A stretch of DNA of 64,000 nt from Escherichia coli. GTDB lineage: Bacteria; Pseudomonadota; Gammaproteobacteria; Enterobacterales; Enterobacteriaceae. How positions within the stretch are numbered: position 1 is the first letter of the stretch; the number at the start of each line of letters is the position of its first letter. The position numbers were made by a program, and so were the translations under genes. The notes beneath the pieces are model-generated. The model did no database searches. It saw only the letters and a list, made by a program, of their open reading frames with translations, and was not told where the DNA came from. The stretch is taken from NCBI RefSeq assembly GCF_016026235.1, contig NZ_CP065613.1; one strand, given 5' to 3'. This document shows positions 1 through 64,000 of this stretch, piece by piece.

Positions 1-36
1 TAACAGTACAATCAGTATGATGGCAAGTCGCATCAT
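1..36 (-). CDS. Ibs-family type I toxin, N-terminal 12 codons only (MMRLAIILIVLL); the rest lies beyond the window start
   Basis: Reverse complement of 1..36 reads ATG ATG CGA CTT GCC ATC ATA CTG ATT GTA CTG TTA; paralogous to the complete copy at 369..428. Confidence 0.5.
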   Translation of the reverse strand, partial: MMRLAIILIVLL

Positions 37-82
37 AACCCTTCTCCTTCAAGCCCTCGCTTCGGTGAGGGCTTTACCGTTA
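1..82 (+). ncRNA. Sib-type antisense sRNA (antitoxin), copy A, partial; 3' end approximate
   Basis: Fully antisense to the partial ibs ORF; ends at the GC hairpin GCCCTCGCTTCGGTGAGGGC (53..72) followed by TTT; inferred from family architecture. Confidence 0.3.
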
Positions 83-265
83 CAGCCCCATGCTGCCCAG
101 TTATCGTAAGCTCTCTTTAAATAACCGCAACGCATTGATCTACCTTTAAATCTTTTCTTCGAGCGCGCTCGAAAAACCCCATGCAAAACAGAGATAATTT
201 TTGGGAAAAAGGATCTATTACGGCAGTAAACGTGGGCGATGAAGTGGCTATCAAAAAGTTCGGTT

Positions 266-13435: not shown

Positions 13436-13535
13436 TGCCGGATGCGGCGTGAACGCCTTATCCGGCCTACAAAAACCTGCAAATTCAATATATTGCAGGA
13501 TACGTGTAGGCCTGATAAGCGTAGCGCATCAGGCA
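13436..13535. repeat. BIME: two inverted REP elements with a central palindrome
   Basis: GCCGGATGCGGCGTGAACGCCTTATCCGGCCTAC ... GTAGGCCTGATAAGCGTAGCGCATCAGGC. Confidence 0.85.
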
Positions 13536-59276: not shown

Positions 59277-60383
<1,107 letters not shown>

Positions 60384-60584
60384 TTCCATTAACCGCCCCT
60401 GACGATGCTCAGGGGCAAAAATGTTATCCACATCACAATTTCGTTTTGCAAATTGGGAATGTTTGCAATTATTTGCCACAGGTAACAAAAAACCAGTCCG
60501 CGAAGTTGATAGAATCCCATCATCTCGCACGGTCAAATGTGCTTTTTCAAACACTCATCCGCATCACGATGTGAGGAAATTAAC

Positions 60585-61841
60585 ATGAATCTTAAGCTGC
60601 AGCTGAAAATCCTCTCTTTTCTGCAGTTCTGTCTGTGGGGAAGTTGGCTGACGACCCTCGGCTCCTATATGTTTGTTACCCTGAAGTTTGACGGTGCTTC
60701 TATTGGCGCAGTTTATAGCTCACTGGGTATCGCAGCGGTCTTTATGCCTGCGCTGCTGGGGATTGTGGCCGACAAATGGTTAAGTGCGAAATGGGTATAT
60801 GCCATTTGCCACACCATTGGCGCTATCACGCTGTTCATGGCGGCACAGGTCACGACACCGGAGGCGATGTTCCTTGTGATATTGATTAACTCGTTTGCTT
60901 ATATGCCAACGCTTGGGTTAATCAACACCATCTCTTACTATCGCCTGCAAAATGCCGGGATGGATATCGTTACTGACTTCCCGCCAATCCGTATCTGGGG
61001 CACCATCGGCTTTATCATGGCAATGTGGGTGGTGAGCCTGTCTGGCTTCGAATTAAGCCACATGCAGCTGTATATTGGCGCAGCACTTTCCGCCATTCTG
61101 GTTCTGTTTACCCTGACTCTGCCGCATATTCCGGTTGCTAAACAGCAAGCGAATCAGAGCTGGACAACCCTGCTGGGCCTCGATGCATTCGCGCTGTTTA
61201 AAAACAAGCGTATGGCAATCTTCTTTATCTTCTCAATGCTGCTGGGCGCGGAACTGCAGATTACCAACATGTTCGGTAATACCTTCCTGCACAGCTTCGA
61301 CAAAGATCCGATGTTTGCCAGCAGCTTTATTGTGCAGCATGCGTCAATCATCATGTCGATTTCGCAGATCTCTGAAACCCTGTTCATTCTGACCATCCCG
61401 TTCTTCTTAAGCCGTTACGGCATTAAGAACGTAATGATGATCAGTATCGTGGCGTGGATCCTGCGTTTTGCGCTGTTTGCTTACGGCGACCCGACTCCGT
61501 TCGGCACCGTACTGCTGGTTCTGTCGATGATTGTTTACGGCTGTGCGTTCGACTTCTTCAACATCTCTGGTTCGGTGTTTGTCGAAAAAGAAGTTAGCCC
61601 GGCTATTCGCGCCAGTGCGCAAGGGATGTTCCTGATGATGACCAACGGCTTCGGCTGTATCCTCGGGGGCATCGTGAGCGGTAAAGTGGTTGAGATGTAC
61701 ACCCCAAACGGCATTACCGACTGGCAGACCGTATGGTTGATTTTCGCTGGTTACTCCGTGGTTCTGGCCTTCGCGTTCATGGCGATGTTCAAATATAAAC
61801 ACGTTCGTGTCCCGACAGGTACACAGACGGTTAGCCACTAA
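60585..61841 (+). CDS. nupG: Nucleoside:H+ symporter
   Basis: ORF trimmed to MNLKLQLKILSF...; 418 aa. Confidence 0.93.
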   Translation: MNLKLQLKILSFLQFCLWGSWLTTLGSYMFVTLKFDGASIGAVYSSLGIAAVFMPALLGIVADKWLSAKWVYAICHTIGAITLFMAAQVTTPEAMFLVILINSFAYMPTLGLINTISYYRLQNAGMDIVTDFPPIRIWGTIGFIMAMWVVSLSGFELSHMQLYIGAALSAILVLFTLTLPHIPVAKQQANQSWTTLLGLDAFALFKNKRMAIFFIFSMLLGAELQITNMFGNTFLHSFDKDPMFASSFIVQHASIIMSISQISETLFILTIPFFLSRYGIKNVMMISIVAWILRFALFAYGDPTPFGTVLLVLSMIVYGCAFDFFNISGSVFVEKEVSPAIRASAQGMFLMMTNGFGCILGGIVSGKVVEMYTPNGITDWQTVWLIFAGYSVVLAFAFMAMFKYKHVRVPTGTQTVSH

Positions 61842-61851
61842 TTACGCAAAG

Positions 61852-61888
61852 AAAAACGGGTCGCCAGAAGGTGACCCGTTTTTTTTAT
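61852..61888. terminator. Bidirectional intrinsic terminator shared by the convergent nupG and speC
   Basis: Hairpin ACGGGTCGCCAGAAGGTGACCCGT flanked by an A-run and a T8 run. Confidence 0.7.
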
Positions 61889-61890
61889 TC

Positions 61891-62205
61891 TTACTTCAAC
61901 ACATAACCGTACAACCGTTTCATGCCATCCGCATCGGTTTCGCTATAAACACCTTGCAGCTCCGGCGAAAATCCCGGCAACAAATACACCCCTTCTTCCA
62001 GTGCAAGGAAATAACGTTGAACCGCCCCACCCCAGACTTCCCCGGGTACCACGCAAAGCACGCCAGGTGGATAAGGCAACGCCCCTTCTGCCGCAATTCG
62101 CCCTTCGGCATCACGAATCCGCACCAACTCCACGTCACCGCGAATATAAGGCAGTATGACTTTCCGTGAGACAGATGCTGGCCAACGTGGGATATTTAAC
62201 GCGGG
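61891..62205 (-). pseudogene. speC: 3' fragment of ornithine decarboxylase speC (about 80-100 C-terminal codons); upstream part displaced by an IS element
   Basis: Frame ends ...RIRDAEGRIAAEGALPYPPGVLCVVPGEVWGG...YGYVLK; native SpeC is about 711 aa; going upstream the frame hits a stop at 62206..62208 next to the IS. Confidence 0.65.
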
Positions 62206-63667
62206 TTAACATCGTTGTCAGAGCCGCATGGGTGAGCTGTTGCTACACCCCGGTATTTCCACCACGGAGGCCAGCATGAACAACAATAACACATTGTACG
62301 TCGGGTTAGATGTTCACAAAGAATCGATTACTGTCGCTTATGCTATCAATTCAGAACCTGTTGAACTGATGGGTAAAATTGGCACATCACCTACTGATAT
62401 TCAGAATCTTTGTAAACGTCTCAGGTCAAAGTCATCGCAGGTCAGTATCGTTTATGAAGCGGGGCCCTGTGGTTATGGACTTTATCGTCGGCTGGTGAAA
62501 TCCGGTTTTGACTGCATGGTCTGCGCCCCCTCACTTATCCCGAAAAAACCGGGGGAGCGGGTTAAAACCGATCGCCGTGATGCCATCAGACTTGTGCGTT
62601 CACTGCGTGCAGGAGATCTTTCTGCTGTCTACGTACCCGGCATTGAAGATGAGGCATTCCGGGATTTGGCCCGGGCATGGGCATCTGCCCGCGATGATTT
62701 ACGGCATGCAAGGCAACGTCTGAAATCGTTTCTTCTGGTTCATGGGGTCCATTATGTCGGGCGAGCAGATTGGGGCCCTGCACACCGACGCTGGCTCAGC
62801 AAATACTCATTCGAAAGTCCCTGGCGACAATTAGCTTTTGACGAACACCGTCGTACAATAGAAGACCGGCAGGCACAATGTGAACGGCTGGAATCCGCCC
62901 TGAAGGAGGCCGTTACCGAATGGAGGCTGTATCCGGTAGTAGAGGCGCTGCAAGCCATGCGAGGGATTCAGTTTATTACTGCGGTTGGATTAATTTCTGA
63001 ACTGGGTGATCTGACCCGTTTTGAACATCCACGACAACTGATGTCATGGTTTGGTATCACGCCATCAGAATATTCATCGGGTGGAAGCAGACATCAGGGC
63101 AGCATTACCAAAGCCGGAAACAGCTATGCCAGAAAGCTATTGGTCGAGGCAGCGTGGAGTTACCGTCATCCGGCACGCATCAGTCCGGCAATACAAAAAA
63201 GGCAGGAAAATTTACCCCGCCCCGTCATTGACAGAGCATGGGATGCTCAACTCAGGCTTTGTAAGAGGTATCGAAAACTTCAGGCCAAAGGAAAGAATGT
63301 CAATATTACAATTGTTGCTGTTGCACGTGAGCTGGCGGGTTTTATCTGGGATATGGGCCGAATAGCAATGTCTGTCGCACAACAACCACAATGTCACAAA
63401 TAAAAAATGAGAATAACCAGTTCCCTGAAGGCGACGTAGCCCGGTACAAGAGTAACCCACGTTAGCGCTTGGCGACGGCGGAACAAAGCTGATTCGCGAC
63501 GTAAGAAAGTGGCAGGCTCATATGACGGACCTCTGTAATGCGGTATCCAACCCGCGAATATCAGCGTGATTCACCGTCGGATTTACTGCTACGTCGCCCT
63601 CAGGGAATTAAACCTAAAAAGAAAATCGTCAAAATTAGAGATTCCGGTTTGACACGGAAAGTCATAT
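62206..63667 (+). mobile_element. IS110-family insertion sequence; both ends are approximate
   Basis: DEDD-type transposase ORF with no terminal inverted repeats; left junction lies between 62134 and 62227; right end not determinable from the sequence. Confidence 0.4.
62276..63403 (+). CDS. IS110-family (DEDD) transposase/recombinase
   Basis: ORF trimmed to ATG giving MNNNNTLYVGLDVHKESITVAY... (375 aa), GGAGG 6 nt upstream; typical IS110 N-terminus. Confidence 0.85.
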   Translation: MNNNNTLYVGLDVHKESITVAYAINSEPVELMGKIGTSPTDIQNLCKRLRSKSSQVSIVYEAGPCGYGLYRRLVKSGFDCMVCAPSLIPKKPGERVKTDRRDAIRLVRSLRAGDLSAVYVPGIEDEAFRDLARAWASARDDLRHARQRLKSFLLVHGVHYVGRADWGPAHRRWLSKYSFESPWRQLAFDEHRRTIEDRQAQCERLESALKEAVTEWRLYPVVEALQAMRGIQFITAVGLISELGDLTRFEHPRQLMSWFGITPSEYSSGGSRHQGSITKAGNSYARKLLVEAAWSYRHPARISPAIQKRQENLPRPVIDRAWDAQLRLCKRYRKLQAKGKNVNITIVAVARELAGFIWDMGRIAMSVAQQPQCHK

Positions 63668-64000
63668 CAGCATTACCAAAGCCGGAAACAGCTATGCCAG
63701 AAAGCTATTGGTCGAGGCAGCGTGGAGTTACCGTCATCCGGCACGCATCAGTCCGGCAATACAAAAAAGGCAGGAAAATTTACCCCGCCCCGTCATTGAC
63801 AGAGCATGGGATGCTCAACTCAGGCTTTGTAAGAGGTATCGAAAACTTCAGGCCAAAGGAAAGAATGTCAATATTACAATTGTTGCTGTTGCACGTGAGC
63901 TGGCGGGTTTTATCTGGGATATGGGCCGAATAGCAATGTCTGTCGCACAACAACCACAATGTCACAAATAAAAAATGAGAATAACCAGTTCCCTGAAGGC
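63668..64000 (+). mobile_element. Second, 5'-truncated copy of the same IS (3' third of the transposase gene plus 3' flank), running to the window edge
   Basis: 63668..64000 is identical to 63100..63432 (offset 568 bp); ORF 63708..63971 repeats the transposase C-terminus. Confidence 0.7.

What the first reader, a model, noticed from the sequence alone, without database searches (positions are those of the whole stretch)
63404..64000. 3' flank of the IS: 20-bp inverted-repeat pair and an immediately following 5'-truncated second copy
Eighteen bp after the transposase stop, TTCCCTGAAGGCGACGTAGC (63421..63440) is matched in inverted orientation by GCTACGTCGCCCTCAGGGAA (63589..63608), one mismatch, 148 bp apart. 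Sixty bp later a second copy of the element begins abruptly in mid-gene: 63668..64000 is identical to 63100..63432. IS110-family elements are known to encode a structured guide RNA (bridge RNA / seekRNA) in a non-coding end, and the ~260-bp flank here is a candidate region. The partial copy is not a simple head-to-tail dimer.
Basis: partly seen in the sequence, partly recalled or inferred. Interest (0 to 1): 0.55.

Follow-up and report, generated by a model that had tools for sequence, protein, structure and literature searches.

The report
ISSso6 bridge-RNA end, tandemly duplicated
The flank is the non-coding right end of the known insertion sequence ISSso6; the 20-bp inverted repeat is the closing stem of its guide ("bridge"/seek) RNA, and the "second copy" is a 568-bp tandem duplication anchored exactly at the element's recombination point.

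Summary
Both observations are real, with coordinates off by one base for the second repeat arm. The element is ISSso6 (IS110 family, IS1111 group), inserted in speC at window 62151..63670. Empty-site comparison shows a 2-nt AG core and no target duplication, so the inverted repeat lies inside the element. The repeat is the basal stem of a ~190-nt structured RNA (63419..63609). This RNA is conserved in 45 relatives, shows compensatory changes, and has G-U pairs that fit only the transposase strand. One internal loop carries two guides matching opposite strands of the target GTA-AG-CGCTAACG, and these guides track the targets of relatives. A second region repeats the right-end sequence AATATCAG. 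Durrant et al. 2024 already list ISSso6 as having a bridge RNA in its right end, so the kind is known. The truncated copy is a tandem duplication of the last 568 bp. Other assemblies carry the same speC insertion without a duplication, or with a different one followed by intact speC. All five ISSso6 duplication joints analysed sit next to an ectopic AG. The mechanism of these duplications is unresolved.

The parts
61891..62150 (-). 3' fragment of speC (ornithine decarboxylase), cut by the IS. Its last bases ATA-AG (62146-62150) are the left half of the target plus the AG core.
   Evidence: ORF translation. Intact speC reads ...CGCGAATATAAG|CGCTATGCGCATCC (L082).
62151..63670 (+). ISSso6, 1520 bp. 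The boundary is ambiguous by the 2-nt AG core. There is no target-site duplication.
   Evidence: Megablast to annotated ISSso6 copies at 99.9-100%. Empty sites in speC and upstream of nhaA. The same ends occur at over 10 other sites.
62155..62168 (+). Left sub-terminal inverted repeat, TATGACTTTCCGTG.
   Evidence: 100% complementary to 63653-63666. The two arms co-vary in relatives.
62276..63403 (+). Transposase/recombinase, 375 aa.
   Evidence: NF033542 'IS110 family RNA-guided transposase', 273.9 bits. PF01548 and PF02371. 46% identical to the ISCARN28 transposase.
63404..63670 (+). Non-coding right end, 267 nt.
63419..63609 (+). Structured core of the bridge/seek RNA.
   Evidence: Alignment A1 columns 1-202 are 78.9% identical to relatives, against 68.7% for tnp DNA and 29.8% for the spacer. 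96.8% of cells are paired, 11 pairs show compensatory change, and 0 of 500 shuffles reach this. Pairing is 96.8% on the + strand and 89.9% on the - strand.
63419..63440 (+). 5' arm of basal stem P1.
63588..63609 (+). 3' arm of basal stem P1.
63460..63470 (+). Right-target guide, CGUUAGCGCUU (5' strand of loop A). It is complementary to the top strand A-AG-CGCTAACG.
   Evidence: 11 of 11 match to the site upstream of nhaA and 8 contiguous to speC. In relatives the guide tracks the right flank: mean run 3.18 against 0.76+-0.19 in 10,000 permutations.
63472..63497 (+). Hairpin capping loop A (P5/P5b).
   Evidence: Compensatory changes at pairs 63:86, 66:80, 71:79 and 72:78.
63501..63505 (+). Left-target guide, GUAAG (3' strand of loop A). 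It is identical to the top strand (G)TA-AG, so it pairs with the bottom strand.
   Evidence: Nearly every ISSso6 left flank read ends GTA-AG; speC has ATA-AG. In relatives, mean matched run is 4.63 against 2.76+-0.21. Columns 59 and 94 covary, TA:15 and AT:21.
63557..63565 (+). Donor (right-end) guide, AAUAUCAG, plus one handshake-like base (C).
   Evidence: Identical to the right end ...ATATCAG and nearly invariant. The following base equals the first base of the right target in 34 of 38 elements, against 16.7+-2.8 in permutations. Columns 56 and 156 covary.
63584..63589 (+). Candidate left-end donor guide, UACUGC, complementary to the left end GCAGTA. Tentative.
   Evidence: Sequence match only. 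It overlaps the top of P1 and does not track the G/T/A variation at the first left-end base.
63649..63654 (+). Invariant TTGACA, a candidate -35 of a circle-junction promoter. With CAGTAT at 62152-62157 it would give a 17-nt spacer.
   Evidence: Invariant in A1 and coordinates read. Promoter function is inferred from the families described in PMC11187229.
63653..63666 (+). Right sub-terminal inverted repeat, CACGGAAAGTCATA.
63101..63102 (+). Ectopic AG inside tnp, where the duplication starts. Context is GGC-AG|CATTACCA.
63668..64000 (+). Second, 5'-truncated copy, which is a tandem duplicate of 63100-63432. The joint shares CAGC with the right end. The repeat unit is 568 bp, so the second right end is predicted at ~64238.
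   Evidence: Analogous structures in L001, L101 and L102.

Best explanation
Window 62151..63670 is ISSso6, an IS110-family (IS1111-group) element inserted at a target look-alike in speC. Its 267-nt right end encodes a bridge/seek RNA on the transposase strand, probably processed from the transposase transcript; no internal promoter was detected. Above the stem, an internal loop capped by a hairpin carries two guides. CGUUAGCGCUU pairs with the top strand of core plus right target. GUAAG pairs with the bottom strand of left target plus core. The multi-loop carries AAUAUCAG, which matches the element's right end plus core, followed by one base that matches the first base of the right target. The recombinase would use this RNA to align the donor junction RE-AG-LE with GTA-AG-CGCTAACG-like targets and exchange strands at AG. 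The preferred natural target appears to be the terminal repeat of IS66-family elements. The truncated second copy is a tandem duplication of the last 568 bp of the element, joined exactly at the right-end core to an ectopic AG inside tnp. I think it most likely comes from a one-ended reaction of the recombinase, or repair of its nick, at the RE-AG junction with a sister copy. Shown here: the ends, core, target, RNA conservation and covariation, guide-target tracking, and the duplicated anatomy. Inferred: expression, protein binding, the promoter, and the duplication mechanism.
For: Identity and ends. RNA structure: 96.8% of cells are paired against 31-43% for slid controls. 11 pairs have compensatory change, with 0 of 500 shuffles reaching this. 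G-U pairs favour the + strand. The core is more conserved than the coding DNA. Guides: 11 of 11 complementarity to the empty site upstream of nhaA. Guide-flank tracking across Burkholderiaceae relatives is far above permutations. A handshake-like base matches in 34 of 38 elements, and columns 56:156 and 59:94 covary. Literature: Durrant 2024 Supplementary Table 5 lists 'ISSso6 RE IS1111'. The same paper notes that IS1111 bridge RNAs lie in the right end and often have donor guides in a multi-loop. The order found here, top-strand match 5' of bottom-strand match, is the IS1111 order of Siddiquee 2024. Duplication: L097 and L105 carry the same speC insertion without a duplicate, with RE|CGCTATGCGCATCC. 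L101 carries it with a 205-bp right-end-anchored duplicate followed by speC, plus a 302-bp duplicate of the left flank. L102 and L001 have 161-bp and 339-bp duplicates at other sites. For L001, uninterrupted relatives of its IS66-family target read continuously across the junction, though only about 21 nt of the left flank matched. All five joints overlap the ectopic site by at least 2 nt, always AG.
Against: No expression or binding data exist for this RNA, and Rfam gave no hit. Donor recognition rests on invariant sequence, so it has no covariation support. The left-end guide is weak. Helices P6 and P7 never vary on both sides. The window stops at 64000, so the right side of the duplicate is not seen here. 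The ectopic sites match the target guide only modestly: they fall in the top 10%, 32%, 2% and 32% of 82 AG sites. Microhomology-primed repair without the recombinase joining step would fit equally well.
Confidence: 0.85

Rival explanations
1. The partial copy is an assembly artefact: contigs with untrimmed overlap were joined at a repeat boundary, or a repeat was mis-resolved.
For: Every duplicate is 100% identical and anchored at an IS boundary, which is also a repeat/unique boundary in assembly graphs. Two of the cases (L101, L102) come from one assembly. The exact junction was not found in metagenome contigs.
Against: The duplicate lengths all differ (568, 339, 205, 161 and 302 bp), so they are not a fixed k-mer overlap. 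All five joints share 2-6 nt with the ectopic site, always including AG; simple concatenation would give about (1/16)^5. The structures occur in at least three assemblies: the window, the E. coli VL40 pINV plasmid, and GCA_031665325.1.
Confidence: 0.1
2. The duplication arose without strand transfer by the recombinase. The route would be microhomology-mediated template switching or unequal exchange, possibly started by a recombinase nick at the core, or homologous re-integration of an aberrant partial circle.
For: Microhomology is short and variable at 2-6 nt. Several ectopic sites match the guide poorly. ISPpu9 is reported to form several kinds of circles.
Against: Random microhomology events would not all be anchored at the AG core of an IS junction, on both the right-end side and the left-flank side. 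The best guide look-alike among sites actually used is GTT-AG-CGCT at 63464, which ranks in the top 2% and was used in L101.
Confidence: 0.3
3. The inverted repeat is a DNA-level feature rather than an RNA stem. Candidates are a protein-binding or cruciform site, a transcription terminator for tnp, or the ends of a small nested MITE.
For: Both strands fold with similar z-scores, -4.4 and -4.7. Most stem pairs are Watson-Crick.
Against: G-U pairs (2:201, 18:186, 42:107, 158:170, 161:167) would be A-C on the other strand or in DNA. The arms are 147 nt apart with no U-tract, and no + strand terminator was found there. The enclosed sequence is conserved in all 45 relatives at the same place and carries guides that track targets, which a nested MITE would not do.
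Confidence: 0.03

Closest known systems
ISCARN28 and other IS1111-group bridge RNAs predicted by Durrant et al. 2024 (PMC11208160, Fig. 6, Extended Data Fig. 10, Supplementary Table 5)
   Same: The transposase is 46% identical to ISCARN28. The RNA lies in the right end, the sub-terminal repeats are long, and the donor-matching bases sit in a multi-loop. ISSso6 itself is listed as 'RE / IS1111'.
   Different: In the papers searched, I found no published structure, guide map or target for ISSso6. The assignments here (AG core, GTA-AG-CGCTAACG target, handshake-like base) are my own.
seekRNAs of ISEc11, ISPa11 and ISKpn4 (Siddiquee et al. 2024, PMC11187229)
   Same: The non-coding region is downstream of tnp. 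[quoted passage not shown] No internal promoter is evident.
   Different: The transposase is only locally similar to TnpEc11, 25% over 129 aa, and is 375 aa rather than 330-350 aa. ISSso6 and ISCARN28 are about 20-24% identical to the core IS1111 set in that paper's identity matrix. There are no RNA-sequencing or functional data for ISSso6.
IS621 bridge RNA (IS110 group; PMC11208160, PMC11208158)
   Same: It uses two-loop logic (target and donor), has a 2-nt core shared by donor and target, places guides on both DNA strands, and has handshake bases that pair with the non-cognate partner.
   Different: The IS621 RNA is in the left end upstream of the gene, has its own promoter, and uses a CT core and simple internal loops. 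Guide order and strand are reversed here, and the donor loop is a multi-loop.
IS4321/IS5075 (IS1111 family, which target the terminal repeats of Tn21-family transposons; cited in PMC11208160 ref. 10)
   Same: These are IS1111-type elements that insert at a fixed position inside the terminal inverted repeat of another mobile element.
   Different: ISSso6's recurrent target is the end of IS66-family elements, GTAAG|CGTCAACGG. This is my observation, not a cited one.
CazIS110-1 'direct-transfer' pathway (bioRxiv 10.1101/2025.10.25.684509)
   Same: In that pathway, top-strand transfer from an LD-RT or LT-RD junction to a new site produces LD-nRT type joints. That is the joint type seen here, RE-AG-ectopic sequence.
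   Different: That work used designed targets and an IS110-group element. Here the evidence is only genomic footprints, with tandem duplications as the outcome.

Membership tests
IS110 family, IS1111 group | N-terminal DEDD (RuvC-like) transposase domain | tested here: met
   PF01548 over residues 9-153, E=6.7e-11. NF033542 at 273.9 bits against a cutoff of 140.
IS110 family, IS1111 group | C-terminal Tnp domain (PF02371) with the G..P....S/T-G motif | tested here: met
   PF02371 over residues 223-297, E=1.6e-23. The sequence FGITPSEYSSGG is present.
IS110 family, IS1111 group | Sub-terminal inverted repeats of 7-17 bp | tested here: met
   A 14-bp perfect pair at 62155-62168 / 63653-63666, lying 4 bp inside each end.
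IS110 family, IS1111 group | Longer non-coding region downstream of tnp (right end longer than left end) | tested here: met
   Right end 267 nt (63404-63670) against left end 125 nt (62151-62275).
IS110 family, IS1111 group | Site-specific insertion without target-site duplication | tested here: met
   Empty against occupied sites in speC and upstream of nhaA. GTA-AG|CG.. flanks at most of the ISSso6 sites read; one orthologous site (L004, L093, L094) has a non-matching right flank.
IS110 family, IS1111 group | Transposase clusters with the core IS1111 clade | tested here: inconclusive
   Only 25% identity over 129 aa to TnpEc11. 46% to ISCARN28 and 45% to ISEc45. Durrant's table calls both ISSso6 and ISCARN28 IS1111. 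No tree was built here.
IS110 family, IS1111 group | Circular intermediate with a promoter formed at the abutted ends | not testable with these tools
   Only TTGACA-N17-CAGTAT can be read across a virtual RE-LE junction.
Bridge RNA / seekRNA | Conserved structured RNA in the non-coding end, on the transposase strand | tested here: met
Bridge RNA / seekRNA | Target-binding loop with two guides that pair with opposite strands of the two target halves and overlap at the core | tested here: met
Bridge RNA / seekRNA | Donor-binding guides matching both element ends | tested here: inconclusive
   The right-end side, AAUAUCAG, matches but is invariant, so covariation cannot test it. The left-end side, UACUGC, is a 6-nt match that overlaps P1.
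Bridge RNA / seekRNA | Same core dinucleotide in donor and target | tested here: met
   AG occurs at both junctions and in the empty sites. Some copies in relatives read AA or GG at the right junction.
Bridge RNA / seekRNA | Handshake bases pairing with the non-cognate partner | tested here: met
   The donor-loop base after the core equals the first right-target base in 34 of 38 elements. The reciprocal base in the target loop matches the first left-end base in only 9 of 27.
Bridge RNA / seekRNA | RNA is expressed, binds the recombinase and is required for transposition | not testable with these tools
   Needs RNA sequencing, RNP purification and transposition assays.
Rfam families | Match to a curated covariance model | tested here: not met
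   No hit in 62151-64000 at E<=10 or at gathering threshold.

The most novel reading that the evidence does not exclude
The ISSso6 recombinase repeatedly makes one-ended, core-anchored strand transfers from its own junctions (RE-AG and LT-AG) to ectopic AG sites on a sister copy. This leaves tandem duplications of 161-568 bp on either side of the element, and these sometimes duplicate the whole bridge-RNA gene. They would be natural footprints of the top-strand-only or 'direct-transfer' chemistry so far seen only in reconstituted systems. They would also be a record of the enzyme's off-target spectrum in Shigella and enteroinvasive E. coli genomes.
Probability: 0.35. Interest if true: 0.5.

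Novelty: already known. Interest (0 to 1): 0.33.

Why it matters
The main feature is a textbook example of a known class, the IS1111-type bridge/seek RNA. ISSso6 is already catalogued as having one, so it adds little on its own. Three things were not found in the papers searched here. The first is an explicit guide map: AG core, target GTA-AG-CGCTAACG, and a handshake-like base. The second is the apparent preference for the ends of IS66-family elements. The third is the recurrent tandem duplications anchored at the core. If these duplications are made by the recombinase, they give a natural read-out of off-target and one-ended reactions of a bridge recombinase. That is relevant to how these enzymes behave as genome-editing tools and to IS-driven genome decay in Shigella-like lineages.

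Tried and rejected
- **Rfam.** Neither the E<=10 search on 61800-64000 nor the gathering-threshold search on the whole window gave a hit in the IS.
- **Single-sequence folding.** Both strands gave similar z-scores, so it could not decide the strand. The strand was decided from G-U pairs in the alignment.
- **Sequence past 64000.** Exact-protein look-ups for the 87-aa truncated transposase returned only contigs under 520 bp. Look-ups for the 131-aa junction ORF and the 80-aa SpeC fragment found nothing.
- **Metagenome scans.** Scans for the RE|internal junction and for the RE|speC junction both found nothing.
- **Junction searches in E. coli genomes.** These were uninformative because the tool joins the two halves of the query from ordinary copies.
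- **Right end near 63420.** Rejected on the empty-site evidence.
- **TAAG as part of the IS.** Rejected, because TAAG is present in the empty sites.
- **Nested MITE or terminator.** Rejected; see the rival explanations.
- **The internal site ACATCAGGGCAGCAT as a donor-junction mimic.** Rejected, because the breakpoint is 3-5 nt away from where that model predicts.
- **A guide matching the variable part of the sub-terminal repeats.** None was found.
Full report
**Observation.** The window end reads mltC (59301-60383), nupG (60537-61841), a bidirectional terminator, then the 3' end of speC on the minus strand, which is cut at ~62150. TTCCCTGAAGGCGACGTAGC at 63421-63440 pairs with GCTACGTCGCCCTCAGGGAA at 63588-63607, with one mismatch and 147 nt between the arms. 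The direct repeat is also real: 63668-64000 equals 63100-63432 over all 333 nt, and the bases just before each copy differ.

**What the element is and where it ends.** Megablast names the element ISSso6, with 99.9-100% copies in enteroinvasive-type E. coli chromosomes and pINV plasmids. The 375-aa protein hits NF033542 'IS110 family RNA-guided transposase' and Pfam PF01548 plus PF02371.

Two empty sites fix the ends. Intact speC reads ...CGCGAATATAAG|CGCTATGCGCATCC. The intact region upstream of nhaA reads ...GACGGCTGTAAG|CGCTAACGGGTGACC. The occupied sites read ...TAAG|GCAGTATGAC...GTCATATCAG|CGCT....

So the IS is 62151-63670 (1520 bp). The ends are ambiguous by a shared AG, and there is no target duplication. 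The TAAG that looked like the first IS bases is target sequence. The 14-bp perfect sub-terminal repeats (62155-62168 / 63653-63666) lie 4 bp inside each end. The inverted repeat therefore lies well inside the element, in a 267-nt non-coding right end.

**The RNA.** A genome scan with the transposase gave 77 related loci, nearly all in Burkholderiaceae, at about 64-88% amino-acid identity over the best segment (most 70-81%). I aligned 46 right-end non-coding regions as alignment A1.

- Columns 1-202 (window 63419-63609) are 78.9% identical to the window on average. The transposase DNA is 68.7% identical and the following spacer 29.8%.
- Helices P2-P4 lead from P1 to an internal loop (loop A), which is capped by hairpin P5.
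- The structure then has a multi-loop carrying two small hairpins.
- It pairs in 96.8% of cells, against 31-43% when partners are slid.
- 11 pairs show compensatory change, with 0 of 500 shuffles reaching this. One example is 30:116, with CG in 21 sequences and UA in 21.
- Frequent G-U pairs make the structure fit the transposase strand better: 96.8% against 89.9%.
- No promoter-like site lies in front of the RNA and no + strand terminator follows it. This agrees with processing from the transposase transcript, as reported for IS1111-type elements.
- P6 and P7 are invariant, so they are untested by covariation.

**Guides.**

- *Right-target guide.* The 5' strand of loop A, CGUUAGCGCUU (63460-63470), is the exact reverse complement of A-AG-CGCTAACG in the empty site upstream of nhaA. 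It matches speC over AAGCGCTA.
- *Left-target guide.* The 3' strand contains GUAAG (63501-63505). This is identical to the top strand (G)TA-AG, so it would pair with the bottom strand.
- *ISSso6 flanks.* Left flanks end GTA-AG (ATA-AG in speC). Most right flanks begin CG, as CGCT.., CGTTAACG, CGTCAACGG or CGTA... The exceptions are one orthologous site with TGAATGTG (L004, L093, L094) and L104 (CCTGAACC), described under the passing observations.
- *Relatives.* Both loop strands vary and follow each element's own flanks. The mean matched run into the right flank is 3.18, against 0.76+-0.19 in permutations with a maximum of 1.76. For the left flank it is 4.63 against 2.76+-0.21. Loci are related to one another, so these are not independent trials, but the effect is large.
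- *Overlap at the core.* The two guides overlap at the core, and columns 59 and 94 covary. The top-strand match lies 5' of the bottom-strand match, which is the IS1111 order of Siddiquee et al..
- *Donor side.* In the multi-loop, AAUAUCAG (63557-63564) equals the right end plus core. The next base equals the first base of the right target in 34 of 38 elements, against 16.7+-2.8 in permutations. It also covaries with the right-target guide position. This resembles the handshake guides of IS621.
- *Left-end guide.* The candidate UACUGC (63584-63589) is only a 6-nt match and overlaps P1, so I leave it as tentative.
- *Possible promoter.* The right end also carries an invariant TTGACA (63649-63654). 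In a circle it would sit 17 nt from the invariant CAGTAT of the left end. A junction promoter is inferred, not shown.

**Comparison with what is known.** Durrant et al. 2024 predicted bridge RNAs in 93% of IS1111 elements, located in the right end and often with donor bases in a multi-loop. Their Supplementary Table 5 lists 'ISSso6 / RE / IS1111'.

The ISSso6 transposase is 46% identical to ISCARN28, one of their inspected examples, and 45% identical to ISEc45. It is only locally similar to TnpEc11, the experimentally studied IS1111 seekRNA system. In Siddiquee's identity matrix, ISSso6 and ISCARN28 are about 20-24% identical to the core IS1111 set. ISSso6 therefore sits in a deep branch that has the IS1111 anatomy.

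The kind is known and this member is catalogued. The explicit guide map is mine.

**The truncated second copy.** The left junction is a normal insertion at a speC look-alike of the target, so the complete copy is in place. An exact-protein look-up of the transposase returned the same locus from other assemblies.

- L097 and L105 carry the speC insertion with a single right end, followed by CGCTATGCGCATCC. That is, speC continues.
- L101 carries the same insertion with a 205-bp tandem repeat of the right end. The joint is RE-AG|CGCTTGGCGACGG, and the ectopic site is GTT-AG|CGCT at 63464. A second right end follows, and then speC.
- L101 also has a 302-bp tandem repeat of the left flank. The joint is ...GAATATAAG|AAAAACGGG, and the ectopic site is CAA-AG|AAAAACGG at 61850.
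- L102 and L001 have 161-bp and 339-bp right-end-anchored repeats at other sites. L001 is a pINV plasmid, where uninterrupted relatives of the IS66-family target read continuously across the junction, though only about 21 nt of the left flank matched.
- One Paraburkholderia relative, L046, shows the same kind of joint.

The window therefore most likely holds a 568-bp tandem duplication (63103-63670 repeated). A second right end is predicted near 64238, followed by speC.

In all five ISSso6 joints the ectopic breakpoint is preceded by AG, with an overlap of 2-3 nt on the left and 0-4 nt on the right. The duplicate lengths all differ. This argues against contig concatenation. It places the events at the point where the recombinase cuts.

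The ectopic sites resemble the target only modestly, falling in the top 10%, 32%, 2% and 32% of 82 AG sites. I cannot separate three routes:

- strand transfer by the recombinase to an ectopic AG on a sister copy. This gives the LD-nRT joint type of the 'direct-transfer' pathway described for CazIS110-1;
- repair primed from a recombinase nick;
- homologous re-integration of an aberrant partial circle (compare).

**Verdict.** The main feature is ordinary for this family and already catalogued, so interest is modest. The recurrent core-anchored duplications, and the apparent targeting of IS66-family ends, are the only parts that may be new.

Noticed in passing
L089 61-90; L090-L092, L095; L098, L099, L103 (right flanks): Many ISSso6 copies sit 5 bp inside the end of IS66-family elements. 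The uninterrupted end reads GTAAG|CGTCAACGGAGCACC, and the left flanks differ between copies. ISSso6 therefore seems to target the terminal repeat of IS66-type elements, much as IS4321 targets Tn21 ends. The speC, nhaA-upstream and sopA sites are look-alikes.
   Followed up: partly
window 63460-63471 (- strand) and 63464-63469: The DNA encoding the right-target guide is itself a near copy of the target: CAAG|CGCTAACG on the minus strand, with one mismatch. Because AGCGCT is a palindrome, a pseudo-target GTT-AG-CGCT also lies on the plus strand. That plus-strand site is the one used for the 205-bp duplication in L101.
   Followed up: partly
L101 1775-2375 (equivalent to window 61849-62150): In another assembly with the same speC insertion, 302 bp of the left flank (the nupG terminator to the speC fragment) is tandemly duplicated. 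The joint lies at the left-junction AG core.
   Followed up: yes
L046 1553-1671: In a Paraburkholderia relative, the right end is followed directly by the element's own right-end sequence, starting just after the internal ATATCAG that encodes the donor guide. This may be another core-anchored duplicate. The contig is short.
   Followed up: partly
L090, L091 (right junction); L010, L011, L013, L025 and others: Some copies read GG or AA instead of AG at the right junction, while the left junction keeps AG. In the AA group the guide has UUU. This suggests core mismatches between donor and target that segregate to one junction.
   Followed up: no
L004, L093, L094: These are orthologous ISSso6 copies next to a caiF/grlA-like gene. 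They have a frameshifted transposase, a one-base guide variant (CGCC) and a right flank (TGAATGTG) that does not match the guide. This is an old off-target insertion or a later deletion.
   Followed up: no
window 1-175, 294-444, 393-567: An 85% direct repeat lies at the window start. One unit is a Sib antitoxin RNA (Rfam RF00113, 134 bits), so this is a tandem ibs/sib toxin-antitoxin pair. Rfam also finds naRNA4 at 53335-53405 (-) and ES036 at 13471-13513 (+).
   Followed up: partly
window 61849-61886: A 17-bp stem with T and A runs on either side lies between the convergent genes nupG and speC. It looks like a bidirectional terminator and produced weak chance hits to several sRNA and leader families.
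   Followed up: no
window 61891-62150: speC (ornithine decarboxylase) is inactivated by the insertion. The same insertion is present in at least three other assemblies, so it is inherited within a lineage rather than private to this genome. No complete E. coli genome in the collection has it.
   Followed up: partly
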